A stretch of DNA of 64,000 bases. It comes from Amoebidium appalachense. Lineage: Eukaryota > Protista > Ichthyosporea. Both the position numbers and the translations under genes were made by a program. Shown here in pieces: positions 50,185 through 64,000 of this stretch. The DNA lies in contig CAVNZM010000004.1 of assembly GCA_963693365.1 (NCBI GenBank), forward strand, positions 141,948 through 205,947, given 5' to 3'. Numbering within the stretch: position 1 is the first letter of the stretch; each line of letters opens with the position of its first letter. The notes beneath the pieces were generated by a model. The model did no database searches, was not told where the DNA came from, and saw nothing but the letters and a program-made list of their open reading frames with translations.

Positions 50185-50284
50185 CCAGATGGCCAGATGG
50201 CCAGGTCAAATTCAGTGTGTGGAAAAAGGTGGATAAAACGGGATAAAACGGTGAGCAAAATGATCTGGCCATCTGGCCATGTGG
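50185..50284. promoter_or_regulatory. Inverted iteron module 1 (ccagatggc, 9-bp period), origin-like
   Basis: ccagatggccagatggccaggtca (50185-50208) versus tgatctggccatctggccatgtgg (50261-50284): 22/24 inverted match around an A-rich spacer. Confidence 0.55.
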
Positions 50285-50800
50285 CCATGGAATCTCTATA
50301 TCTAAAAATAGCTGCCACTGCGCCGGGGCGTGGTTCCGGGAGGCAGGGGAGGCAGGGGGGGCACACGTGCAGGGGAGGCAGGGGGGGCACACGTGCAGGG
50401 GAGGCAGGGGGGACACTCACTGCCACCACTGGGGGCCGTGGTTCCGGCAGCAGGGGGGGCAGGGGGGCAGGGGAGGCACACGTGCACAGGAGGCTGGGGA
50501 GAGTGGGGGAACCATGGTTGTGTGTATGGCTGAGTTAAGACCATTTGTTCATGTAGCACGATCTTCTAGCATGCACGTGTTGGAATGCCACCACTGGGGG
50601 GCCTGGTTCCGGCAGGCAGGGGGGCTGGGGGGCCACCCAGTGTGTGGGTGTGCATGTGGCAGGGGAGCAGGGGGGCAGGGGAGCAGGGGAGCAGGGGGGA
50701 CTGGGGAGCAGGGGGGCTGGGGAGACTGGCATGCCACTCACGGGGAGGATAGTGTATGTTGGCACGTGGGGGTGTGTGGGTGATAAAGGCAGAAGCCACA

Positions 50801-51127
50801 ACACGTGTGGTGTCTAAACAGCCTATAGGCATGCTCCGTGTGCAGGCACCAATTTCTACCCTCTTCTGGTTGGTGCCAAGAGGCAGCTCCCTACACGTGT
50901 GGTGTCTAAACAGCCTATAGGCATGCTCCGTGTGCAGGGCACAATTTCTACCCTCTTCTGGTTGGTGCCAAGAGGCAGTGCCCTACACGTGTGGTGTCTA
51001 AACAGCCTATAGGCATGCTCCGTGTGCAGGGCACAATTTCTACCCTCTTCTGGTTGGTGCCAAGAGGCAGTGCCCTACACGTGTGGTGTCTAAACAGCCT
51101 ATAGGCATGCTCCGTGTGCAGGGCACT
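50801..51127 (+). repeat. 92-bp tandem repeat x3.5, with an inverted copy at 54299-54442
   Basis: Units start at 50801, 50893, 50985 and 51077 and contain the palindromes ACACGTGT and GCCTATAGGC. Confidence 0.92.
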
Positions 51128-51425
51128 AATTTGTTGTGCCTTCCTTTTTTGGTTAGATCTATACCCGGCCAATGGTTAGCAGCCACGGGTTTGTTTTCAT
51201 CAAGCTTAGACGTGATACTTTGCCAACCATCAAGGCCGTTTGAGTGACAATGACCGTTGATTGGTCAGATCTATCCCATTGAGCCTTGGCACCATTGCTG
51301 TAAGCTGCTTTGTACCATGGCATATAAAAGCAGCACACACGGTCACATTCACTCATTTCAACACTGACACTCAATAGTAAAAGGCGACACACAACAAACT
51401 TGTTTTTCAAACACTCACACGAAAC

Positions 51426-52589
51426 ATGGATTCTTTGAAAGAGGAGCTTCAACAGCTGCAGAAGCGCTTTGATTTTCTGTACACGGACCATTCGTCTCGC
51501 TTAACGGCCCTGCACACCGACCTCATCAGCCTCCGCAGTCAAGTGACCAATGAGAATGCTGCGCGTACCCCCCGACCCCCCCAACCCCAGCCCTCTGATG
51601 TAGAGGCACGACTGAGGGCAGCCGAAGAGCAGATCAAGACCCTGCAGGCCGAGCTTGCCAGCCTGCAACGGGCTGCAGCACCCCGTCGGGATGGCCAGGT
51701 GGCCTATGAAAGCTACATTTTCAGTGGCCCTCGCAAGACTACCATTGCCGCCAACACCACCACTGTGACTGCTGACCCCACCCCTGCCGCCAACACCACC
51801 ACTGTGACTGCCCCCACCCCTGTCGCAAAGACCGCCCCTGTGACTGCCCCCACCCCTGCCGCAAAGACCACCCCTGTGACTGCCCCCACCCCTGTCGCAA
51901 AGACCGCCCCTGTGACTGCCCCCACCCCTGCCGCCAAGACCACTCCTGCCAAGACCACCCCTACCACCAAGACCACTCCTGCCAAGACCACCCCTACCAC
52001 CAAGACCACTCCTGCCAAGACCACCCCTACCACCAAGACCACTCCTGCCAAGACCACCCCTGCCGCTAAGCCCAGGCCCAAGCACACCAAAACACCTGAG
52101 ACTTCGTTGCATGACCATACGATGGACCTCGATGCACAGCTAACTAGTGTGAGGGGGGAGCTCCAGAATGCTCGAGAGCGTGTCAAAGAGGCAAAGGCGG
52201 CTGAAGATGAAATGGCGGAGGGCCTGGCCATTGCTGCTGTGTGTGCAGCCCAAAACACCATAAAAAGCATCCGAAGGAAGATTCTGCGACGGGAGAAGAA
52301 CTTGAAGGCATACACAGGTGGTAATGAGTCTGTCTCTTCACCTGCCTCACCCGCCAAACGCGTCCATGATCAATGTGATTGGGACTCAGATGAAGCATTC
52401 AACCCCAAGCGGCTCAAACGACGGGCAAATCAGGTACTCGATGATATGACAGATGACGAATCTGCGTCTGATCGTGAGTCGGTCTTGTATGACCGCAAAC
52501 CTGAACCCAAACATAAACAAACTGAAGAAATTCCCCTCATTGATCTTGACCAGGAAGAGTTTGACCAGTATGAGCATGAGATGTACTGA
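51426..52589 (+). CDS. Hypothetical protein: coiled coil, Pro/Thr/Lys repeat stalk, coiled coil, basic NLS-like patch and acidic tail (387 aa)
   Basis: Intact ORF with TATAAAA at ~51323; (PAKTTPTTKTT)n repeats; PKRLKRR. Confidence 0.75.
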   Translation: MDSLKEELQQLQKRFDFLYTDHSSRLTALHTDLISLRSQVTNENAARTPRPPQPQPSDVEARLRAAEEQIKTLQAELASLQRAAAPRRDGQVAYESYIFSGPRKTTIAANTTTVTADPTPAANTTTVTAPTPVAKTAPVTAPTPAAKTTPVTAPTPVAKTAPVTAPTPAAKTTPAKTTPTTKTTPAKTTPTTKTTPAKTTPTTKTTPAKTTPAAKPRPKHTKTPETSLHDHTMDLDAQLTSVRGELQNARERVKEAKAAEDEMAEGLAIAAVCAAQNTIKSIRRKILRREKNLKAYTGGNESVSSPASPAKRVHDQCDWDSDEAFNPKRLKRRANQVLDDMTDDESASDRESVLYDRKPEPKHKQTEEIPLIDLDQEEFDQYEHEMY

Positions 52590-52989
52590 TTTGATTGGTC
52601 GACTAAGTGGCATTCTCTTTTGATTTGTATTTGAATTGATCGGTCTTGATTTATTTGTTTCTTTTCTCTTTTAGTTTGTATTTGAATATACTCGGTCCAA
52701 GTTGATTTGTTCTTTATAATCTGACTAGACTATCATGTACGTACTTACTCTTTTTCTATACAATCACTTGTGTTCATATTAAAGGATTCTGTGTACGTGG
52801 ACCACGGAAACATACACCATTTTTTGCAGTGCTTCATGCTATAAAATAACCATGAGAGACACAAACAAATACACTAAGTGTGTACACGTCTACCCATAGG
52901 CCCAAGTGTTGACATGTCTGCCCACAGTTCCCTAAGGCTTAAAGCACACATCTGCCTGTATGCCATAAACTTTACTTTCACCACAAGAC

Positions 52990-53582
52990 ACCCACCTAAG
53001 TACACTCTGCACCACCCTAAGTACACTGTGGTGCACAGCCCCACCCTAAGTACACATCTGCACCACCCTAAGTACACTGTGGTGCACAGCCCCACCCTAA
53101 GTACACATCTGCACCACCCTAAGTACACTGTGGTGCACAGCCCCACCCTAAGTACACGTCTGCACCACCCTAAGTACACTGTGGTGCACAGCCCCACCCT
53201 AAGTACACATCTGCACCACCCTAAGTACACTGTGGTGCACAGCCCCACCCTAAGTACACGTCTGCACCACCCTAAGTACATGTCTGCACCACCCTAAGTA
53301 CACTGTGGTGCACAGCCCCACCCTAAGTACACGTCTGCACCACCCTAAGTACACGTCTGCACCACCCTAAGTACACGTCTGCACCACCCTAAGTAGACTG
53401 TGGTGCACAGCCCCACCCTAAGTACACGTCTGCACCACCCTAAGTACACGTCTGCACCACCCTAAGTACACGTCTGCACCACCCTAAGTACAGGCACCAC
53501 CCTAAGTACAGGCACCACCCTAAGTACAGGCACCACCCTAAGTACAGGCACCACCCTAAGTACAGGCACCACCCTAAGTACA
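52990..53582. repeat. Hierarchical minisatellite built on CACCCTAAGTACA (52-, 22- and 17-bp units)
   Basis: Seen directly; the core contains CCCTAA. Confidence 0.92.
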
Positions 53583-53903
53583 ATATGCACGCTGGATACA
53601 AATGGCTTGGTGTGTGTGTGTGTGTGTGTTTTATTTTGCATTGTGTAAGGGGCGCTTTTTTTTGTTCACACTGCTTTACTTCGTGTAAATAATCAGTGGC
53701 GAGTTTTTTTTAGTTCACGGTGTGTTTGCGCATCATAGGATTTTGCTTTATTTTGCACTGTGTAAGAGGGACGGTTTTTTTGGGTCACACTTTTGCTTCG
53801 TAAAAATAAGAGGGACGTTTTTTTTTGTTCACACTGCTTTGCTTCGTGGATAGAAAGATAGAAAAACTAAACACCTCCTGCCCAACCGGCTGCAAACGAC
53901 ACA

Positions 53904-54298: not shown

Positions 54299-54442
54299 AC
54301 CAGAAGAGGGTAGAAATCAGTGCCCTGCACACAGAGCATGCCTATAGGCTGTTTAGACACCACACGTGTAGGGCACTGCCTCTTGGCACCAACCAGAAGA
54401 GGGCAGAAATCAGTGCCCTGCACACGGGGCATGCCTATAGGC
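54299..54442 (-). repeat. Inverted copy (~1.5 units) of the 92-bp repeat
   Basis: Reverse complement of the 50801 unit. Confidence 0.9.
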
Positions 54443-54451
54443 AGTGATGGG

Positions 54452-54588
54452 GTGAGTAGGATGAGTAGCTTGAGTACCTACTCATCTGGTCTCCCCCCGG
54501 GTGTTCCAATTTCCTTTTGGATTGAGATTTAGGTATACCCGTAGCCCACAGTAGATGAGTACGTACTCATTCTACTCATCCTACTCAC
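54452..54588. promoter_or_regulatory. Inverted iteron module 2 (TGAGTAG, 9-bp period), origin-like
   Basis: gtgagtagg atgagtagc ttgagtacc ... gtactcatt ctactcatc ctactcac, with a perfect 17-bp inverted repeat. More TGAGTA/TACTCA copies continue to ~54716. Confidence 0.6.
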
Positions 54589-54918
54589 TATATGACAATT
54601 GCATATTTTTATACCTAAAAAGGAAACCTTTACCATATTTGGGTGAGTAACATCTAGTGGGGGAAACTTGTCTGTGTTACTCAGAATGAGTACCCTGAGT
54701 AAGATATTGTTACTCATGAAACAAATAAAAAACCATTAATTTTATGCTCAGAGTAACTTGAATTCAGGGCAAAGGAAAACGTTGGCTTTTTTACAAATTT
54801 GTGTGCGCACACACAAGCATGCGCTCGGACGACACGTTGGGTGTGGCCCTGCTTATATACGCGTGCTGCACCATCCGGGGCGCAGTCGCACACACACACG
54901 CACTGCGAGATACCTGCA

Positions 54919-55437
54919 TTATTCTCTACACTGCCGCCTATTTTTCTGTACTGATTCATATAACTGCAGCGACAGAATGTCGCACCCCATGTCATGCCAA
55001 AGGAAGTCCTTCAAAAAGTCGATTCGCAGAAGGGTTGTTCGTTTTCTCTTTGCCTCCATGGGGACAGCTCGTCCCTCGCTCATGCCCTCCTCCTCCGTCG
55101 GATCCCTCGGTGGCAGCAGCGACAGCGTGGTGTCCCAGCGCTCCCAGGTCAGCCGAAACGACTTGCCCCAATCCAGGTCGATGGTCACCGCATCCCCGGC
55201 CCCCTCCAGTGGACACGTCGAAAACACCAGGTGGTTGAGTCCAGTCCTGTTCGACGTTTCCACCGACTGCAGCGGCAGCATCGTGTCCGACAGCATCGTG
55301 TCGCCCTTGCCGAGTCTTGCGTGGAGCTGTAGCGGCCGGCTTGCCACCCTCCCGGCGCCGTTCGAGTCGAACGTCATGTTGGATACAAGCAGCGACAGCC
55401 GATTGACAAATAGCTTCAGGTCCTGCTCAAAAGCCAT
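54919..55437 (-). CDS. Hypothetical protein (172 aa from MAFEQDLK)
   Basis: Intact ORF, with TATAAAA on the minus strand at ~55495. Confidence 0.65.
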   Translation of the reverse strand: MAFEQDLKLFVNRLSLLVSNMTFDSNGAGRVASRPLQLHARLGKGDTMLSDTMLPLQSVETSNRTGLNHLVFSTCPLEGAGDAVTIDLDWGKSFRLTWERWDTTLSLLPPRDPTEEEGMSEGRAVPMEAKRKRTTLLRIDFLKDFLWHDMGCDILSLQLYESVQKNRRQCRE

Positions 55438-56105
55438 GGTCGGTTCTGGTGCAGATGCAGACTGGCAGCTCCCCGTGTCAGACACACGCTTTTATACCCT
55501 CCAGAGTCCCCGCCTGCGTCGGCGCACACTCATTCGCAAGGTGCCAGTTCTCGAGGCGCTGCATGACCACGAGTGCGCGCTTGCGTGTTTCGGTGTGTGT
55601 GTACGTGGGCCCGAATCGGAGTGTGAGGTGCTGAGCGTGCGCTGTTGCACAAGCATGTGGACCGCAGGTGTGCGACCGGGAGACATTGTGGTGGCGTGCG
55701 AGATCAAGCGCGCGGAGCCCGGGTGGCGCAAGGTGTATCTCGAGCTCGAGGAGGGCGCGTGGACCAGCAACCAATGTGCCGCAGGGTGTAAGCGGAGAAA
55801 GTGGTTTCACTAGGAGAGGTCGCCCACAATTTTTGGGTGAACGTCATGTCAAAACGAAGAGGTCGGTCCAAAAAGAGGGGTCACAGACGTGCAAGGAAGT
55901 ACGTCTATGCAGACGAGTTCATGCCAAAATACCGGAGACTGGTGCTCCGACAGAGTGTGCGAGTAAAGCGCCAAGCACATTGATATTTTTATTTCTGTTG
56001 TTGGATTTACATTGTATATTCACCCCAATGTGAAGTTGCAAAACCATTATTTGGATCGTTGGATTTACATTATATATTCACCCCGAAACTGTTTAAGATT
56101 TTTTG

Positions 56106-56483
56106 CTATAAGGCATGCCCCACGTTGCCCGCGTTGCTCCAGGGGGTCCCCTCGTTCCACTCATCAAGGTCCGCACCCACCCCCTCGAACTCCTGGTTGC
56201 GGTTGCGCCCGTAGGCTCTGTCAAAGACACCCTCGCGCAGCGGCAGCCCTGCTGCCTCCACCACGTGGCCGACCTCTTTGAAAAAATAGTCAAGCCAGCG
56301 CTCACCCCAATCTTCAAGTGCTGTGCTCAGGTCCTCGGTGGTTGCGCCGCCCGGGGCCATGGTGGTGAACCACCATGTTCCTTCCGCATCCTCACCCGAG
56401 CACACCCTGTCCATGTACCTCGTCAGTGCGTCCTCCGTCTTGGCGCGCCCTACGTCCCAGCGGTTTTTAGGTTCCATTAGCAC
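56106..56483 (-). CDS. Hypothetical acidic, Trp-rich protein (125 aa)
   Basis: Intact ORF with natural composition; no motif recognised. Confidence 0.55.
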   Translation of the reverse strand: MLMEPKNRWDVGRAKTEDALTRYMDRVCSGEDAEGTWWFTTMAPGGATTEDLSTALEDWGERWLDYFFKEVGHVVEAAGLPLREGVFDRAYGRNRNQEFEGVGADLDEWNEGTPWSNAGNVGHAL

Positions 56484-56557
56484 TGCGATGCATAATCTCT
56501 GTGTGTGCTCCCCGAGTTGCTGGGGAGGGGGCGCTCCAAACTATCTCTTCGGAAGGT

Positions 56558-56812
56558 ATGACTTCTCCGAACATTGCAAACCTGAGATTTGACAACCCGA
56601 GTAACTCGACAGTGCGCAGGGATGACATTGCCGCCGACCCGCACGAGTACCACCTGACCATCGACAACAGCACGCGCTTCATGCTCTACATGGGCACTTC
56701 ATTGGACGACCATGATGCACAGCTCAAGAGGGCTTCGATGTGGAGGGGCATAGCGCTTGCATGCATGGTGCTGCTCGTGCTGCTCGCCGGCGTGCTGGTG
56801 TACAGGTGGTAG
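56558..56812 (+). CDS. Small tail-anchored membrane protein (84 aa)
   Basis: C-terminal TM helix GIALACMVLLVLLAGVLVY. Confidence 0.6.
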   Translation: MTSPNIANLRFDNPSNSTVRRDDIAADPHEYHLTIDNSTRFMLYMGTSLDDHDAQLKRASMWRGIALACMVLLVLLAGVLVYRW

Positions 56813-56843
56813 GGGTGGGGGGGGGTTCTCAGGTGGGCTGGTT

Positions 56844-56968
56844 GTTGCAGCGGTTGAAGCTGTTGAACCGTTGAGGCTGGGCGGGTCAACCCATACACAC
56901 ACAGACCTATCCCACTTCTCTATTGAATACCCCACCTTCAACAGCTTCAACAGCTTCAATTCTTCAAC
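56844..56968. promoter_or_regulatory. Inverted iteron module 3 (GTTGAAGCT, 9-bp period) directly upstream of the helicase; TATA box at ~56974
   Basis: gttgcagcg gttgaagct gttgaaccg ... ttcaacagc ttcaacagc ttcaa, with a perfect 14-bp inverted repeat. Confidence 0.65.
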
Positions 56969-57022
56969 AAGGGTATAAAAGGAGCAGGCATGCTTTATTT
57001 TCTTCAGTCTATTGTAAGCATC

Positions 57023-58474
57023 ATGAGTGCGCCACCATCTTATGATGCATTTGAGGATCTTACGGTTGACCACAGCATGTTGTTTGACCCCCACACATGT
57101 GTCCAACGCTCACATTGGACTATGGATCAGGTGTTTGCCTTTTTGAGCCCAAACATCGCATATGTCAGTAGGGAAGGTGCCTATCTCGTCAAGATTTATG
57201 ACCAGGACACGAACCTGTACAAACACCATCGCAAAACAAAGGCTGCACTCCAAGAGTTTTTGGGTGCCTTTCTATTCCAGCTCGTCCCTGGTGCAAATGG
57301 CAAACAGGACACGTACAACGGCGCAAACGTGTTGAAAACACCATGCTTTCCATACTACACCTGTTTTGTTTTCGACCCGTCATCTCCAGACCCACGCACC
57401 GGAAACACCAAGCCAGCCTACCTTGTCCAACGTTGCCGGGCATACAACATGTTCAAGGGGTTGGCCGTTCCCCATCAACCCGAGAACATTTCTTGGCAGT
57501 CGGGTTCTGTTTCCTTGTTCGAACGTCATGCCTTTGAGGTTCTTTGTAACAACGACCGGGAGAGCTTTCACTATCTGATGCAATGGGTCGCACACATCTT
57601 CCAGTATCCGGAAGTCAAGTCCGGGACAGCAATTCTCATGAGGTCGATTCAGGGAATAGGGAAAAACATCTGGTGGGAGATCATCGCCAACATCATTGGC
57701 AGCTGTTATTGCGGTTATATCACACACAGAGAGCATTTGGAGGGCAAGTTCAATGCACATCTGGAGAACAAGCTACTGGTTGTGTGCGACGAAATGGGTC
57801 TAGGCAGTAACAGGGAAATTGCGAATCTGATGAAGGCTCGCATCACCCAACAGGTAAACATGATTGAACGGAAGGGGCATGATGCCGTGTGTGTGAAGAG
57901 TTTTGAACGCTATGTCTGGCTTTCAAACGAGAAATGGCCCGTTCGTGTGGAGGAATCAGATCGTCGTTGGGTATGTTTGCAGGGGACTCCAGTGGTCTAT
58001 CCAAGAGCCTACTACCAGAACTTTACACGCTTCTACGAAGACCCGGCAAACCTACAGGCTGTGTGCGATTACTTCATGAAGATGCCGAATGTTCCCCGTG
58101 TTCTTCCGCTTCCACCCAAGACCGAACTCTGGTGCGAACTGCGTGAAATGACACAGCCAGATGAACTCCTGTTTCTCAAAGACATGGCGACAGGCGCAGA
58201 GGGCATGTCTATCGAGCAACTTCCCAACGGGGCCCGTGTTACAGCCACCACGATGCTGCATCTGTACAAGGAGTGGCTTTCACTCAACGGCAAGACCAAG
58301 AGCATCCCGTACGCCAGTGTGAAGAGCATGGGCTCCATGCTGGGCAAGATACTTGGACCCAACAAAGGGGTGCGGAACAACCACCTGACTGTTGCACCTG
58401 GGATGCCTGCGCTGTCCTCGACGGGAACGTCGTACGCTTTTGTGTTCGACCATGAGAAGATCAAACAGGCTTAG
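57023..58474 (+). CDS. SF3 D5-like helicase (DUF5906/NrS-1-type) with C-terminal winged helix; no recognisable primase domain
   Basis: YLMQWVAHIFQYP; Walker A SIQGIGKN; Walker B LVVCDE; LMKARIT...IERKG; motif C WLSN; Arg finger DRRW; C-terminal LYKEWL..NG..S.KSMG..L. Confidence 0.9.
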   Translation: MSAPPSYDAFEDLTVDHSMLFDPHTCVQRSHWTMDQVFAFLSPNIAYVSREGAYLVKIYDQDTNLYKHHRKTKAALQEFLGAFLFQLVPGANGKQDTYNGANVLKTPCFPYYTCFVFDPSSPDPRTGNTKPAYLVQRCRAYNMFKGLAVPHQPENISWQSGSVSLFERHAFEVLCNNDRESFHYLMQWVAHIFQYPEVKSGTAILMRSIQGIGKNIWWEIIANIIGSCYCGYITHREHLEGKFNAHLENKLLVVCDEMGLGSNREIANLMKARITQQVNMIERKGHDAVCVKSFERYVWLSNEKWPVRVEESDRRWVCLQGTPVVYPRAYYQNFTRFYEDPANLQAVCDYFMKMPNVPRVLPLPPKTELWCELREMTQPDELLFLKDMATGAEGMSIEQLPNGARVTATTMLHLYKEWLSLNGKTKSIPYASVKSMGSMLGKILGPNKGVRNNHLTVAPGMPALSSTGTSYAFVFDHEKIKQA

Positions 58475-58777
58475 ACGATCCTCAACGCTGCGCCCGGGCT
58501 TGGGTGGCTGGGAGGGGCACGCGAGCATGGGGCCGGGGACGAAGGGGAGGCCCGGCAGGCGGCACGGGGCGGGCGAGCGACGCATGCCCCCAAGCCCCCC
58601 ACTGGGAATTACAACCGACTGGGGCGGCCCACGCAGCGGTTTGGGTTGTTGGTTGGGAAAAGCACCGGTTGGGGTCGCATTGTTTTGTCTTTTTTTTTTC
58701 TTGTATGGCTTGTTGTGTGGCCAGTGGCTAGGACGTGGCTAGATCCAACAGCCAATCAAATTGCGCCATTGGGTTCT

Positions 58778-58950
58778 CTGTGGTTACTGTGGCTACTTTT
58801 TCTCTCTGTGTCTAGTGTGGCTAGTGAAATAAATCAGGGGCGGGGTTGGGGGTTGGCGGCTTTTGATTGGCTGTTGCTAGGGAGATCTCGGGTTTGGGGA
58901 TGAGTTGGGAAGAAGTGGACACAGTAGCCACAATAGCCACGCGGTTACAG
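58778..58950. promoter_or_regulatory. Inverted iteron module 4 (GTGGCTA, 9-bp period) upstream of nuclease 1
   Basis: ctgtggtta ctgtggcta ... ctgtgtcta gtgtggcta ... gtagccaca atagccacg. Confidence 0.55.
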
Positions 58951-58990
58951 CAGCTTGTCTCTTTGGGTTTTTTCTTTTTCTCGGGCTTAT

Positions 58991-59656
58991 ATGATGGCCG
59001 ACTACGACGAGGCATCTGTCAGAGACAGACTAGCACGATTCGAAGGCGGGCAAACCGAGGTGCTAACACCGGCTGGACGTATAGACGTGCTGACAAGTAC
59101 CGAAATCATCGAAGTTAAGCGGGCATCTAAATGGAAATCGGCCGTCGGGCAGGTGTTGTCCTACGGGGGGTTTTACACCCAGCATCGCCCAAGAGTCCAT
59201 CTATTCGACACAGCGCCGATCGAGGTGTACAAGGTGGCAGTTGAGACAATGGCACGTCTGGGCATAAAAGTGACAGTCGAGCCCGACACAATGGAGCTTC
59301 TTTGGGGTTTGCGGTCAGATCCCCTGAAGACTCAGGCTGAGATGCAGCCAGTGGTGTGTGATCTTCCTGACATCACTCTCTGCCGCGACGACTACGTGTT
59401 GTTTCTCAAGAGTTTGGCCAACGATAAGGGTGGCACTCCGCACATCAAGGACGGCTCAATCACTGATTCCGCATCACTTTTACCCGTTTTCCAGGTCTGG
59501 TGCCAGGAAAATGGCAGAGACCACAGCAAGGCTAGTGTCAACATTATGGGCAGGACCCTCCGGCTGGTGCTTGGAGAGCGTGTGAGTGTTTATGTGCCGG
59601 GGTCCACCATCGCAAAAGGGTACAGGGTATCCTTCGCAAAAATACAGGCAAGCTAA
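58991..59656 (+). CDS. PD-(D/E)XK nuclease fused to a D5-type C-terminal winged helix (paralog 1)
   Basis: E..VRDRL..EV.TPAGRIDVLT..EIIEVK...WKSAVGQVLSY; the C-terminus aligns to the helicase C-terminus. Confidence 0.8.
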   Translation: MMADYDEASVRDRLARFEGGQTEVLTPAGRIDVLTSTEIIEVKRASKWKSAVGQVLSYGGFYTQHRPRVHLFDTAPIEVYKVAVETMARLGIKVTVEPDTMELLWGLRSDPLKTQAEMQPVVCDLPDITLCRDDYVLFLKSLANDKGGTPHIKDGSITDSASLLPVFQVWCQENGRDHSKASVNIMGRTLRLVLGERVSVYVPGSTIAKGYRVSFAKIQAS

Positions 59657-59901
59657 CAAATTGCTACGTGCCACAGCGAGGCCCAGCAGATTTGTTGTAG
59701 ACCACCCCGGGCCTGCGAGGGGCCTGGGGGCATGCGCGGCACGCGAGGCACAGGAGGCACGCGTGGCTGACGGGGCACCGGTGCACACAGGCCCCTCCCA
59801 GCCACCCCCAGTACACACAGGCCCCTCCCAGCCACCCCCAGCCACCCACTGGCAACCAACAATCGACTGGGGGTGATTTTTATTTTCTTGTGTTGTAAGT
59901 G

Positions 59902-60678
59902 ATGGCTACCTACGACGAGTCATATGTCAGGGATAGGCTGGCCAAGCTCGAAGGTGGAACCATTGAGGTACGCACGCCCGCAGGACGGATCGACCTGCTG
60001 ACGGCCACGGAAGTCATCGAAGTCAAGCGCGCTTCTAAATGGAAATCCGCCGTTGGGCAGGTCCTGTGCTATCAAGCCTACTGTCCGAACCATCGACCTC
60101 GGGTACATCTGTTCGATATTGCGTCCCTAGATTGCTTGAAAGTGGCGATCGAAACGATGACGATTTTGGGAATTAGGGCCACAGTCGAATCGGACACGCT
60201 GCAAACGGTGTGGGCGCCTCTCCCCCAAACAGAGCCCAAGAGGCCACCGGAGCAAGAATCCCAAGATGTGAGCGAGGACGAGGTTGTCAGCTGGGACGAT
60301 GTCAATGGCGAACACGTGTGCACCCGGAAGTGCGTCTCAGAATTCCTGGATGAGCTGAGCAAAAATCCTGAATGGTTGCCCAAGGGCTGTCACATCACAT
60401 CCGGGTGCTACATATCTTCAGCTGGCCTTTTCAACCTATATAGTTTGTGGCTGCCAAGCCACTGCAATCAGAACGCCTCGCTCCCGATTCGAACTTTTGG
60501 CGTGTATGCCAGTTCTGTCCTCGGAAAGCAGAAATCGGTGCGCATGAAGCGAATCACTACATGGCCGGGACACCCACCCCGGAAATCCGATCGTTCATCG
60601 GTTATGAATTGCTACAAACTCCGATACACCCGTATGCAGCGCCACACCACAGAACCAGAAAGCCCGACCCAAACCTAG
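59902..60678 (+). CDS. PD-(D/E)XK nuclease fused to a D5-type C-terminal winged helix (paralog 2)
   Basis: The N-terminal ~100 aa are highly similar to paralog 1 (GRIDLLTATEVIEVKRASKWKSAVGQVLCY); the C-terminal wHTH is strongly diverged. Confidence 0.8.
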   Translation: MATYDESYVRDRLAKLEGGTIEVRTPAGRIDLLTATEVIEVKRASKWKSAVGQVLCYQAYCPNHRPRVHLFDIASLDCLKVAIETMTILGIRATVESDTLQTVWAPLPQTEPKRPPEQESQDVSEDEVVSWDDVNGEHVCTRKCVSEFLDELSKNPEWLPKGCHITSGCYISSAGLFNLYSLWLPSHCNQNASLPIRTFGVYASSVLGKQKSVRMKRITTWPGHPPRKSDRSSVMNCYKLRYTRMQRHTTEPESPTQT

Positions 60679-60822
60679 CGTGAGGCGCGTGAGGCACGCG
60701 AGGCACAGGAGGCACGCGTGGCACGTGCGCCACAGGAGCCCCCCACAGCCACCCCCGGCCACCCCCGGCCACCCCCAGCCACCCAGGCCCGGGTGGGTGG
60801 CAGATATGGACTGGACCCGGGT

Positions 60823-61698
60823 TTATTGGCGTGCCGCGGCGGCCCAGGCAGCAAACGCCGTGCGGCCATCCGCAAGCGCCCGCGCGACCTTCCCGGGGTC
60901 GACGTCCATGGGCGACGCAAACAGCCTCCGCTCTGGAGCGACCACCACGAGGCGATCTCCGAGGCGGGTGCGGAGGTTGGCGAACTCGGTGGCCGCTAGC
61001 TCGGTGCCCGCGTCACGCTGCAGAGCATAGCAGAGCTCCATGCCCGTTTTTGGCACGGATTCGGCGGGGCAGTGCGCCAGCGAGTCGCACAGCACCGTGA
61101 CGTAGATGCCGTCGAACCCGTCTGCGGCATCCTCGAGTGCCTTGGTGAGGGGCACCAGCTCGGAGACCCCGCCGTCCAGAAACACGGTGCCGCCGTACTC
61201 CACGGGGGGGACCGCGAGCGGAAGGGCCGAAGACGCGCGCATGCCGACCTGGTACTCGGGCCCCGTGAACCACCGCTCCTTCTTGTTGAGGAAGTCCCAG
61301 GCGACGCAGTGGCAGCGCGTGTAGATGTCCGCGTCGATGCCCTCCAGAAGCGCCGCCGCACGCTCCTGCAGGGTGAAGCGGCTGTACGCCGCCCCGTACA
61401 GCATTGACCCCACAACCGTCCTCCAGCTTTTCGGAAGCAGCGCCATTGCGCCACCCCACGGTTCCACGATGTCCTCCACGCACGTCAGCTTCCCCAGCTC
61501 GCGCGCCAGGTCGTCCAGGCGGTCGGCAACCACGAACGGCGCCACCAGCGCGCCGACGGACGTGCCGTACACCCTGTCGACCTCGTACAGCCCCGACGCG
61601 AGCATCCCCTGCATGAACCCGACTTGGAAGCAGCCCTTGACGCCGCCCCCGGGCAGCAGGATCCGCACACGTGTCCTGGCTTGGGAGGGTGTGTCCAT
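60823..61698 (-). CDS. Patatin-like phospholipase
   Basis: GGGVKG oxyanion loop, GTSVG nucleophile elbow, ASSALP and DGG catalytic Asp. Confidence 0.92.
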   Translation of the reverse strand: MDTPSQARTRVRILLPGGGVKGCFQVGFMQGMLASGLYEVDRVYGTSVGALVAPFVVADRLDDLARELGKLTCVEDIVEPWGGAMALLPKSWRTVVGSMLYGAAYSRFTLQERAAALLEGIDADIYTRCHCVAWDFLNKKERWFTGPEYQVGMRASSALPLAVPPVEYGGTVFLDGGVSELVPLTKALEDAADGFDGIYVTVLCDSLAHCPAESVPKTGMELCYALQRDAGTELAATEFANLRTRLGDRLVVVAPERRLFASPMDVDPGKVARALADGRTAFAAWAAAARQ

Positions 61699-61730: not shown

Positions 61731-62597
61731 TCATTCCAAATCCAGGGCGTTGCACACCGAGACCAGGTTTGCCCTTGCGCAGTCCAGCACGAAGGCCGCC
61801 AGCTCGGAGTAGTCGTGGGGGGGCGGCTGGCTCTGCGCGGCCAGCAGCAGCGAGTGGTAGCGCTCGCGGGACCTACGGTCTGTGTACAACGAGAGGGGAA
61901 CGGCAATATAGGGCGAGAGCAGCACGCTGACCAACAGGCGGGCCACGCGCCCGTTGCCGTTGCTGAACGGGTGGATGTAGAGGAACTCCCCGAGGAAACG
62001 GGCGGCGACCTGTATGGCACCGAGAACGTCATTGCAGCCTTGGAGTTCGGTGCGTGTCCTTTCGAACAGACGCTTGAGAGCCTCTTCGATCTTGAACGGT
62101 GCAAGGTACTGATGACTGCAGCCTGCGGGAAGCGCAAAGCGCACCCGATACCGTCCAGCGCTATCGAGCAGCCCGTCCATGACCTTGCGATGGACCTCCC
62201 TAGCGAGCTCCACCGTAAACGTGCCTGGATCAATCCCCTTCCAAACCCACGGTGTGGGGAACAGCTCGCGAACTGCTATAACGACGTTTTTCAGTTTCTT
62301 CGATGAGCGCGTGTGTTTGGACGTTTCATCGGGGCAGGAGATCAGCCTCTCAATATGTTCGACTGGGACCTTTTCGTTTATTTCCAATTCCATCAGGTGC
62401 TTGATGTATAACACTAGGTGGTGCGTTGTGTATCCCTGCATGAACAAAGCGCTGCTCTTATCGTTATCCAAAAACGTGCGCACCAGGTGGAGGCAGCGCA
62501 CAACAGCCCCTTCGCTGAGTTGAGACATCACGGTGTTGAACCGACAGATAAAGTACCACAAACTGTCAAAATCGACCTTTACGTCACACGGCAACAA
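61731..62597 (-). CDS. Fic/Doc-domain protein (start uncertain; first ATG at 62528)
   Basis: EVHRKVMDG..AGRYR; IHPFSNGNGRVARLL, a variant of HPFx(D/E)GNGRxxR. Confidence 0.9.
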   Translation of the reverse strand: MLPCDVKVDFDSLWYFICRFNTVMSQLSEGAVVRCLHLVRTFLDNDKSSALFMQGYTTHHLVLYIKHLMELEINEKVPVEHIERLISCPDETSKHTRSSKKLKNVVIAVRELFPTPWVWKGIDPGTFTVELAREVHRKVMDGLLDSAGRYRVRFALPAGCSHQYLAPFKIEEALKRLFERTRTELQGCNDVLGAIQVAARFLGEFLYIHPFSNGNGRVARLLVSVLLSPYIAVPLSLYTDRRSRERYHSLLLAAQSQPPPHDYSELAAFVLDCARANLVSVCNALDLE

Positions 62598-62997
62598 CCC
62601 GGCCCATATCCACCTGCGCGTTCACCACCCTGTTCTCCTGCCCACCGGCCCCTACCCAGTCCACCGATTTCTCCACAAACCAGAGAGAACACGGCAGTGC
62701 CCATGAACGTTTGGCCCGCATTTTGCTAGAGAACAGCATCGCCGGTCCCCCCCATGTCTCCCGGAACCCAAGAGAACACCATGGCATCCCCAACCATGTC
62801 TCCCGGATCCTTGGAGAACAGGTGCCGGGGGTGGACCCTGTTCGCCGATTGCTTTTTCCTAGGAGCGGGGCATGAGGGGCACGCGAGGCATGCACGGCCG
62901 GGGAGGCACGGTGGTCTCGCAGGCGGCACGGGGCGGGCGAGCCACGCATGCCCCCAGGCCCCCCAGTGGTGGCATTGTATAAAAGGAGCACACAGCA

Positions 62998-63341: not shown

Positions 63342-63842
63342 ATGGACAAACGAAGGGCGAAGATCCACGAGCTGGCGGGACAAGAAGGGTGGCCTGACCC
63401 CGAAACCATTGCGCCTCTTGCGCGGGCGCTGCAGTCGGAAACCGGCAAACCCATGACGACACGAAGATGGAACGCCCTCCGGACCCGCACTCAGCGGTGG
63501 CTGGAATGGCAGAGCAAAATTATGCCGACTACAGTGGACATGTCTGAGCCCCACATGTGCGGATGGTGTGGCCTTGTTTTCAGGTGCCCCACGCAGACGG
63601 ACTGCGAGTGTCCAAATGCGCGGGTTGATGAAAGCGTTGAGATCTGCTGCAGCGAGGAATGCGAGGCCAAACTCGACAGGTGGAGCTGTGACCTGTCTGA
63701 ATGAGACCGACTTATGAGACTGGAGGGCGGAAAGAGCGAAGTGCAGACACCAGCAAGTCGTATCGATCTCCTGACGGACACGGAGGTCATTGAGGTAAAG
63801 CGGGTGCATGAGTGGAAGGGGGCCATGGGGTGTCAAGAGTAA
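63342..63842 (+). pseudogene. Zinc-finger + PD-(D/E)XK nuclease (paralog 3), with an in-frame stop at 63702-63704 and 3' truncation
   Basis: CGWC..CEC..CCSEEC, then LSE*DRLMRLEGGKSEVQTPASRIDLLTDTEVIEVKRVHEWKGAMG in the same frame; homology ends abruptly at 63830. Confidence 0.8.
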
Positions 63843-64000
63843 AAATCTTGAAGCACTGGCATTGCCTGCTCTTCGCAGGATCTGATTGGATCTTGAATTG
63901 GGTGTGATCCAATCCCCAGCAGCCAATCGTGCAGTCTGGTGATCTGGATCTGAAAGCATTCTCCCAATCAAACGCGTGACTGTCATTCCAAGCATTGTTT
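63831..64000. mobile_element. Probable start of an inserted LTR or other TE
   Basis: Begins TGTCAAGA exactly where nuclease homology breaks (the expected GQ..Y motif is missing), and composition changes. The other end lies outside the window. Confidence 0.4.

What the first reader, a model, noticed from the sequence alone, without database searches (positions are those of the whole stretch)
57023..60678. Nucleases carrying diverged copies of the helicase's own origin-binding winged helix: candidate ori-targeted endonuclease system
Seen: the C-terminal ~95 aa of the SF3 helicase (DELLFLKDM..LHLYKEWLSLNG..ASVKSMGSMLGKILG..KIKQA) aligns with the C-termini of both downstream nucleases (DYVLFLKSL..LPVFQVWCQENG..ASVNIMGRTLRLVLG..KIQAS; VSEFLDEL..FNLYSLWLPSHC..LPIRTFGVYASSVLG). 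The two nuclease domains stay very similar while the wHTHs diverge sharply, and a third paralog swaps in a zinc finger. Known: in P4-alpha and SaPI Rep-type SF3 initiators the C-terminal winged helix confers iteron specificity. Inference: a conserved cutter with interchangeable origin-reading modules could cleave origins of competing elements or helper viruses, home into ori sites, or resolve replication intermediates. I do not know this architecture as a described system.
Basis: partly seen in the sequence, partly recalled or inferred. Interest (0 to 1): 0.88.

Follow-up and report, generated by a model that had tools for sequence, protein, structure and literature searches.

The report
Nucleases borrowing a helicase's origin reader
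In a mobile DNA element inside a protist genome, two DNA-cutting-type enzymes carry the same kind of DNA-reading domain as the neighbouring replication helicase, and related proteins appear to swap these domains, so they likely cut the replication origins of rival sister elements, a trick so far shown in a bacterial virus.

Summary
The core observation holds. The C-terminal ~95 aa of the DUF5906 SF3 helicase and of both downstream proteins are homologous (0 of 5000 shuffles per pair; profile-profile 98-99%). A confident model of nuc1 shows a NucS-like PD-(D/E)XK domain plus a winged helix. Corrections: the third copy is a broken fragment behind a stop codon, with the Cys-rich ORF upstream. The nuclease winged helices are only 17-27% identical to this helicase's, so 'its own' is unproven. 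New evidence: 7 of the 150 best relatives carry the same fusion, 2 in reversed order. Domain trees disagree (nuclease winged helices as one clade rejected, p=0.012), and one matches a different helicase at 49%. The element has three inverted iteron-like arrays by a strict scan, and a looser fourth. The concept is not new: phage ICP1 Odn fuses a nuclease to a captured origin-binding domain and cuts rival origins. This looks like an independent eukaryotic version from other parts. Cutting, binding and target are untested, and genomic context of the relatives was not obtained. New variant of a known kind; interest 0.62.

The parts
57023..58474 (+). SF3 (DUF5906, NrS-1/D5-like) helicase of 483 aa; no primase domain detected; Walker A GIGKN, Walker B CDE, motif C WLSN
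   Evidence: TATAAAA at 56974
58154..58471 (+). helicase C-terminal winged helix
   Evidence: by homology; not folded on its own
58991..59656 (+). nuc1: PD-(D/E)XK domain (aa ~5-100; E7, D32, E41, K43, Q54, Y58), flexible linker, winged helix (aa ~132-220)
   Evidence: (pLDDT 87)
59902..60678 (+). nuc2: same architecture; winged helix (60313-60657) closest to that of P0049 (42%)
63342..63704 (+). Cys-rich ORF of 120 aa, ends in TGA; zinc finger not tested
   Evidence: no Pfam hit
63705..63842 (+). broken third nuclease copy: 45 codons after the stop, keeps D-E-K, truncated before QxxxY
56853..56967 (.). inverted array of GTTGAA/TTCAAC repeats at 8-9 nt period, directly before the helicase TATA box; candidate cognate origin
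58717..58940 (.). inverted GTGGCTA/TAGCCAC repeats directly upstream of nuc1; looser, missed by the strict scan
54453..54755 (.). largest iteron-like array (TGAGTA/TACTCA, 14 GAGTA/TACTC copies, 9-nt phased triplets, 66% AT between the outer arrays)
50189..50288 (.). ATGGCCA inverted array near the left edge of the element
59729..59850 (.). GC-rich GGCACGCGA 9-mer array after nuc1; related arrays after the helicase (~58500-58605), after nuc2 (60684-60790) and at 62860-62970
60823..61698 (-). patatin-like phospholipase (cargo)
   Evidence: E=3.3e-18
61731..62528 (-). Fic-domain protein (cargo)
   Evidence: E=2.6e-15

Best explanation
nuc1 and nuc2 are chimeras of a PD-(D/E)XK nuclease domain and a winged helix of the kind that ends this family's SF3 helicases, and they likely work like phage Odn: the winged helix would bind iteron repeats of a sister element's origin and the tethered nuclease would cut there. 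Shown: homology, the two-domain predicted fold, conserved catalytic residues, discordant domain trees, and inverted iteron-like arrays in the element. Inferred: that these helicase winged helices read the arrays (as for SaPI Rep), that the nucleases are active, and that their targets are non-self origins. The last rests on their 17-27% identity to the neighbouring helicase's domain, which would spare the element's own origin. A cut would block or displace a co-resident variant, and repair from the cutter's copy could spread the cassette.
For: Homology. Fold: pLDDT 87 with alpha-alpha-alpha-beta-beta C-domain. Best structural matches: NucS 2vld Z 9.6 (rmsd 2.4, 89 aligned) for the N-domain; winged helices Dcc1 Z 6.3 (rmsd 3.4, 75 aligned) and RFX5 Z 5.8 (rmsd 3.4, 75 aligned) for the C-domain. 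Atlas: nuc1 C-terminus nearest Pox_D5 clusters, score 0.96, family on 18-55% of members of the top three. D-E-K kept in 143 of 150 relatives and E7/D32/E41/K43/Q54/Y58 invariant in 8 of 8 aligned fusions; pN 0.18 against saturated pS 0.76 between nuc1 and nuc2. Exchange: P0051's winged helix is 49% identical to helicase P0015's and at most 30% to any other nuclease's; P0053 and P0132 share 79% in the nuclease but 15% in the winged helix. AU tests reject nuclease winged helices as one clade (0.012), nuc1+nuc2 (0.022) and P0053+P0132 (0.0016). Iteron-like loci: 3 in 14.7 kb of element, 0 in 49.3 kb of host; 2 observed in 53.7-64 kb, where none of 300 shuffles gave any. Several variant copies co-exist in single runs (tables 3, 5, 8). 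Precedent: Odn's domain is 42% identical to PLE RepA and needs iterons to cut (PMC8263062); SaPI Rep winged helix binds oppositely disposed iterons through its wing (10.64898/2026.10.17.759575).
Against: No binding or cutting data. No helicase found matches nuc1 or nuc2 winged helices above 27% (3 helicases compared), so no target replicon is identified for this window's proteins. Genomic context of the relatives was not obtained: none of 44 loci fetched carried this winged helix, and whether P0051 lies beside P0015 is unknown. Synonymous sites between nuc1 and nuc2 are saturated, so 69% vs 22% alone could be unequal constraint. The winged-helix tree has no starred branch, and the six AU groups were named after seeing it. 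The nuclease domain is promiscuous: only 7 of 150 best relatives carry this winged helix, while 103 have the nuclease C-terminal to another region, among them KilA-N. Array spacers are only 45-66% AT and the scan's spacing was chosen after seeing the arrays. C-domain Z-scores are under 8.
Confidence: 0.45

Rival explanations
1. Selfish free-standing homing cassettes: the winged helix would aim the nuclease at a conserved site next to the helicase gene in copies lacking the cassette, and repair would copy it in. The outcome is spread of the gene, not exclusion of a rival. This overlaps with the best reading in biochemistry.
For: Signs of decay typical of such genes (recalled): broken third copy; a 379-nt frameshifting deletion of the nuc1 core, 59043-59423, in 2 of 4 runs. 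Related GC-rich repeats flank each cassette. Two joints in one run skip nuc1.
Against: Those two skipping joints have short sides (21 and 30 letters) and sit in repeats at 85% likeness, so they are weak. No empty allele with an intact target was shown. Homing does not need a Rep-derived reader.
Confidence: 0.2
2. Generic domain shuffling: the winged helix would be a sequence-tolerant DNA tether, one of many partners of a promiscuous viral nuclease domain, used for non-specific DNA degradation or processing.
For: The domain has 2007 relatives at E<=0.001, mostly with other partners; KilA-N fusions in mimiviruses are top viral fold matches; CdiA toxin nucleases are among the top solved-fold matches. 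Both domain orders occur.
Against: The apparent repeated exchange with helicase winged helices, including a 49% match, and several different iteron-like arrays in one element fit selection for new specificities better.
Confidence: 0.2
3. Replication partner of its own element: the nuclease would nick or cut at a self origin to prime synthesis (the helicase has no detected primase) or to resolve or excise copies.
For: No primase hit in the 483-aa helicase; no integrase found among the ORFs scanned; nuc1 has an array directly upstream.
Against: The winged helices differ strongly from the partner helicase's; core-deleted nuc1 copies exist; two divergent copies are not needed for one origin.
Confidence: 0.1
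4. Autoregulated cassette: nuc1's winged helix would bind the GTGGCTA array upstream of its own gene, as a relic origin-plus-rep unit in which the nuclease replaced the ATPase, and would act mainly as a repressor or competitor.
For: Parallel layout [array][ORF ending in winged helix][GC repeat] for the helicase and nuc1. One contig joins the nuc1 upstream region to a diverged helicase 3' end (run X18, record 11).
Against: Catalytic residues are fully conserved and under purifying selection; nuc2 has no comparable inverted array; that contig is a single record.
Confidence: 0.05

Closest known systems
Odn (Gp88) of vibriophage ICP1 (PMC8263062)
   Same: Chimera of a mobile nuclease domain and the origin-binding domain of a replication initiator; iteron origins; module swapping.
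   Different: Odn uses a T5orf172/GIY-YIG nuclease and a RepA_N domain in a phage-satellite conflict, with cutting shown. Here the parts are PD-(D/E)XK and an SF3-helicase winged helix, in a eukaryotic element, in both domain orders, with no target or activity shown.
SaPI Rep / P4 alpha / D5-type SF3 initiator-helicases
   Same: SF3 ATPase with C-terminal winged helix; penta/hexamer repeats in opposite orientations, often at 9-nt period.
   Different: No primase detected on this helicase; several different arrays in one element; the winged helix also sits on nucleases.
NCLDV and cyanobacterial KilA-N-type fusions of the same nuclease domain
   Same: Same ~95-aa NucS-like domain with D-E-K and QxxxY.
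   Different: There the nuclease is mostly C-terminal to other domains; 7 of the 150 best hits carry this winged helix.
DpnI and winged-helix fusion restriction nucleases (PMC3424567, PMC11037411; search listings only)
   Same: Nuclease plus winged helix; in DpnI the PD-(D/E)XK domain precedes the winged helix (recalled).
   Different: Their winged helices sense methylated adenine; this one is homologous to helicase C-termini.
Free-standing homing endonucleases (T4 Seg/Mob type; recalled, PMC10055350 listing only)
   Same: Optional, modular, decaying nuclease cassettes.
   Different: Different nuclease fold and a Rep-derived reader; homing not shown.

Membership tests
Odn (origin-directed nuclease) | T5orf172/GIY-YIG nuclease domain | tested here: not met
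   No Pfam hit; model and motif are PD-(D/E)XK. Not a member of the Odn protein family.
Odn-like mode of action | DNA-binding domain homologous to an initiator's origin-binding domain | tested here: met
Odn-like mode of action | High identity (~42%) to the target initiator's domain | tested here: inconclusive
   49% for P0051 vs helicase P0015, but 13-27% for nuc1/nuc2 against the 3 helicases available
Odn-like mode of action | Iteron-dependent cleavage of a rival origin | not testable with these tools
   needs biochemistry
PD-(D/E)XK nucleases | Restriction-like fold with E...D...E-x-K and QxxxY | tested here: met
   (NucS Z 9.6); NCBIfam NucS E=0.0034 for P0051, far below its cut-off
Pox_D5 (PF03288) winged helix | Pfam gathering score | tested here: not met
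   0 of 11 domains hit it
Pox_D5/RFX-type winged helix | Winged-helix fold and homology to SF3 helicase C-termini | tested here: met
   only nuc1 was folded, nuc2 and the helicase by homology
SaPI/P4-type initiator-helicase | SF3 ATPase motifs plus C-terminal winged helix | tested here: met
SaPI/P4-type initiator-helicase | Origin of opposed iterons around an AT-rich core | tested here: inconclusive
   Opposed arrays present, but spacers only 45-66% AT; binding untested
Free-standing homing endonuclease | Cassette-free allele with a cleavable site | tested here: inconclusive
   two weak skipping joints in one run
DpnI-type methylation-dependent nuclease | Methyl-adenine-sensing winged helix | not tested
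   not examined

The most novel reading that the evidence does not exclude
A eukaryotic mobile-element family runs an origin arms race: PD-(D/E)XK cassettes repeatedly capture the iteron-reading winged helix from sister SF3 helicases to cut rival origins, while elements accumulate alternative iteron arrays to escape. This would be an independently invented, protein-programmed counterpart of phage Odn, with a compact (~220 aa) swappable targeting module.
Probability: 0.35. Interest if true: 0.82.

Novelty: new variant of a known kind. Interest (0 to 1): 0.62.

Why it matters
In the papers found here, origin-directed nucleases are described for one phage-satellite conflict. A convergent version from different parts, inside a eukaryote, would show that capturing an initiator's origin reader is a general route to sequence-specific weapons among mobile DNA. 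It would also give a first testable role to a nuclease family of about 2000 representatives common in giant viruses and cyanobacteria, and natural winged-helix/iteron pairs for working out how SF3 initiators change specificity.

Tried and rejected
No whole genome is held, so copies elsewhere in the host could not be read. Viral-contig scans with nuc1, the helicase, the helicase alignment and the patatin found no relative. The fusion alignment gave 9 loci with the nuclease only. The metagenome scan gave 35 distant helicases (21-31% identity), none with this nuclease or winged helix. The winged-helix alignment was too variable for a locus scan. A 'longer' search with it returned only 2 proteins already known (weak evidence). 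No phage record matched nuc1; 8 plasmid records, 7 cyanobacterial, matched the nuclease domain. PDB sequence searches with winged-helix profiles gave nothing meaningful; Foldseek on PDB gave no E<=0.001. No D5, P4 or DpnI chain appeared among the 50 rows, where the nuclease domain filled the list, so that is inconclusive. The single-sequence fold failed (pLDDT 36). The Atlas search with whole nuc2 gave only a weak NucS_C lead (0.79). One search was circular (shared sequences) and is not used. Expression: no RNA holder listed. Summed contig depth was lower over nuc1 than over the helicase in runs X1 and X6, but it is not a copy number and is not used as evidence. None of 10 window proteins is in the exact-match collection. 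The sigma-70 scan is irrelevant for a eukaryote and found nothing. Earlier-findings look-ups were empty. No complex prediction was run: the open question is protein-DNA.
Full report
Setting. Positions 1 to ~49,300 are intron-rich eukaryotic DNA with a Rab6-like exon and a CH-SH3-DH protein (labels from my own reading), which suggests a holozoan protist. From ~50 kb to the window end lies an intron-poor block with an SF3 helicase, two nuclease genes, a patatin, a Fic gene and several unknown ORFs. It is a variable, multi-copy family: 20 of 23 listed runs, from 3 studies plus 9 rows naming none, hold it or a part, and single runs give contigs in several identity bands. No capsid, integrase or polymerase was detected in the ORFs scanned, but the element runs off the window, so its class is open. 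An ichthyosporean host such as Amoebidium is only a guess. PMC11244446 (passages and supplement search) reports giant-virus, adintovirus and Plavaka repeats there and mentions neither helicase nor patatin; its supplementary figures are pictures I could not read.

Observation. The three C-termini are homologous: 0 of 5000 shuffles reach the observed score for any pair. A non-circular profile test gives 99.2% for 9 nuclease domains vs 3 helicase domains, 98.3% without P0051, and 86.9% against 19 distant DUF5906 C-termini; reversed controls are under 1%. AlphaFold on a 58-row alignment gives nuc1 pLDDT 87, with two domains and a disordered linker (aa 109-128). The N-domain matches NucS (Z 9.6); the C-domain matches the winged helices of Dcc1 and RFX5 (Z 6.3, 5.8; modest). 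The Atlas places nuc1's C-terminus among Pox_D5 clusters (0.96), though 0 of 11 such domains reach a Pfam Pox_D5 hit. The third 'paralog' is a 45-codon fragment after an in-frame stop, downstream of a Cys-rich ORF, so it is a broken copy.

Family. A profile search of 1.84 billion representatives found 2007 relatives at E<=0.001. Of the best 150, 103 have the nuclease C-terminal to another region, 17 N-terminal, 4 both and 26 alone; 143 keep D-E-K. Seven of the 150 carry this winged helix: P0049, P0050, P0051, P0052 and P0054 in the window's order, P0053 and P0132 reversed. Five of these were in the profile used and P0052 is a cluster sibling of a profile member; P0132 is an independent hit at E 2.5e-9. 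A sibling of P0050 lies in a Daphnia sinensis assembly; the rest are unnamed. Structural neighbours among viruses are led by Tetraselmis virus 1, Feldmannia virus and mimivirus KilA-N proteins.

Exchange. Among 9 fusions, winged-helix identities are 10-42%; among the 7 whose nuclease domains were compared (P0052 and P0196 left out as siblings of P0197 and P0050, plus nuc1 and nuc2), identities are 40-79%. P0051's winged helix is 49% identical to helicase P0015's. nuc2's is 42% to P0049's but 22% to nuc1's, although nuc1 and nuc2 nucleases are sisters (91/86). P0053 and P0132 share 79% in the nuclease and 15% in the winged helix. AU tests reject nuclease winged helices as one clade (0.012; the helicase-clade test is the same split), nuc1+nuc2 (0.022), P0053+P0132 (0.0016) and the window's three (0.0002); nuc1+helicase is not rejected (0.20). 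Caveats: groups were chosen after seeing the tree, no winged-helix branch is starred, and synonymous sites between nuc1 and nuc2 are saturated (pS 0.76, pN 0.18). The duplication is therefore old, and the identity contrast alone proves little. The wing varies most in length (15-31 aa) but is no less conserved than helix 2 (both 22%).

Candidate origins. A motif-agnostic scan for 5-mers repeated at 8-10 nt in opposed arrays finds 3 loci in the element and 0 in 49.3 kb of host; in 53.7-64 kb it finds 2, and none of 300 shuffles gave any (spacing chosen after inspection). A looser fourth array lies upstream of nuc1. This resembles SaPI origins, where penta- or hexamer iterons face each other and the SF3 Rep winged helix reads them through its wing (10.64898/2026.10.17.759575, passages). 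The spacers here are only 45-66% AT. The TTGAA array abuts the helicase TATA box, so it is the best guess for the cognate origin (inference).

Variation among copies (4 runs laid of 23 listed, 54,400-60,680). A 379-nt deletion removes nuc1 codons 18-145 and shifts the frame in 2 of 4 runs. Two weak joints in one run skip nuc1 between GC-rich repeats. One contig joins the nuc1 upstream region to a diverged helicase 3' end (28 differences in 157 nt); a joint of the same depth continues into the post-nuc1 repeat. This hints at DNA exchange between helicase and cassette positions but rests on one record.

Mechanism. I favour an Odn-like origin-directed nuclease acting on sister elements (0.45), over homing (0.2), a generic tether (0.2), a replication partner (0.1) and autoregulation (0.05). 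Odn (PMC8263062, abstract and passages) fuses a T5orf172 nuclease to a domain 42% identical to PLE RepA_N, needs iterons to cut, and may drive origin swapping. The P0051/P0015 pair mirrors that identity. For nuc1 and nuc2 no matching helicase was found, which fits non-self targets but also drift. Every step from binding onward is inferred.

Novelty. It works like Odn by hypothesis but is not an Odn family member. Five literature searches (listings only for most rows) showed no described PD-(D/E)XK fusion to an SF3-helicase winged helix; the library lacks most subscription papers. PMC10055350, PMC11037411 and PMC3424567 were seen as listings only. Verdict: real, a new variant of a known kind, interest 0.62.

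Noticed in passing
window 51036-51132 and 54314-54410: 97-nt inverted repeats (97% complementary; 92-nt unit in tandem at 50801-51131) flank a 3.2-kb segment. In 3 of 4 runs a loose end at 54407 carries the reverse complement of 51133-51162, which suggests the segment is inverted in other copies or that contigs simply follow the other arm.
   Followed up: partly
window 52955-53600: Tandem array built from CACCCTAAGTACA units in 51-, 22- and 18-nt periods, inside that segment.
   Followed up: no
window 51426-52589 +: 387-aa ORF with coiled-coil start and a Thr/Pro/Ala/Lys repeat tract; only sub-threshold coiled-coil hits.
   Followed up: no
window 54919-55485 - and 56106-56483 -: Two ORFs with no Pfam, PHROG or NCBIfam hit; long contigs of two runs cover 55.0-56.5 kb with few differences.
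   Followed up: partly
run X1, loose end before window 59977: Letters resembling the third nuclease copy's start lead into nuc2-like sequence, hinting at further nuclease variants in other copies.
   Followed up: no
run X18, record 11 (window 58848-58960 joined to 58318-58474): nuc1's upstream region is joined through 20 letters to a diverged helicase 3' end: a possible chimeric or deleted sister unit.
   Followed up: partly
window 58746-58876 and 63879-63960: Inverted CCAAT-containing repeats upstream of nuc1, and GATCT repeats with CCAAT boxes at the window end.
   Followed up: no
P0015 / P0203: Related 700-aa helicase with an unassigned ~250-aa N-terminal extension.
   Followed up: partly
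window 60823-61698 -: The patatin has much higher GC3 (0.86) than its neighbours (0.60-0.73), suggesting a separate origin.
   Followed up: no
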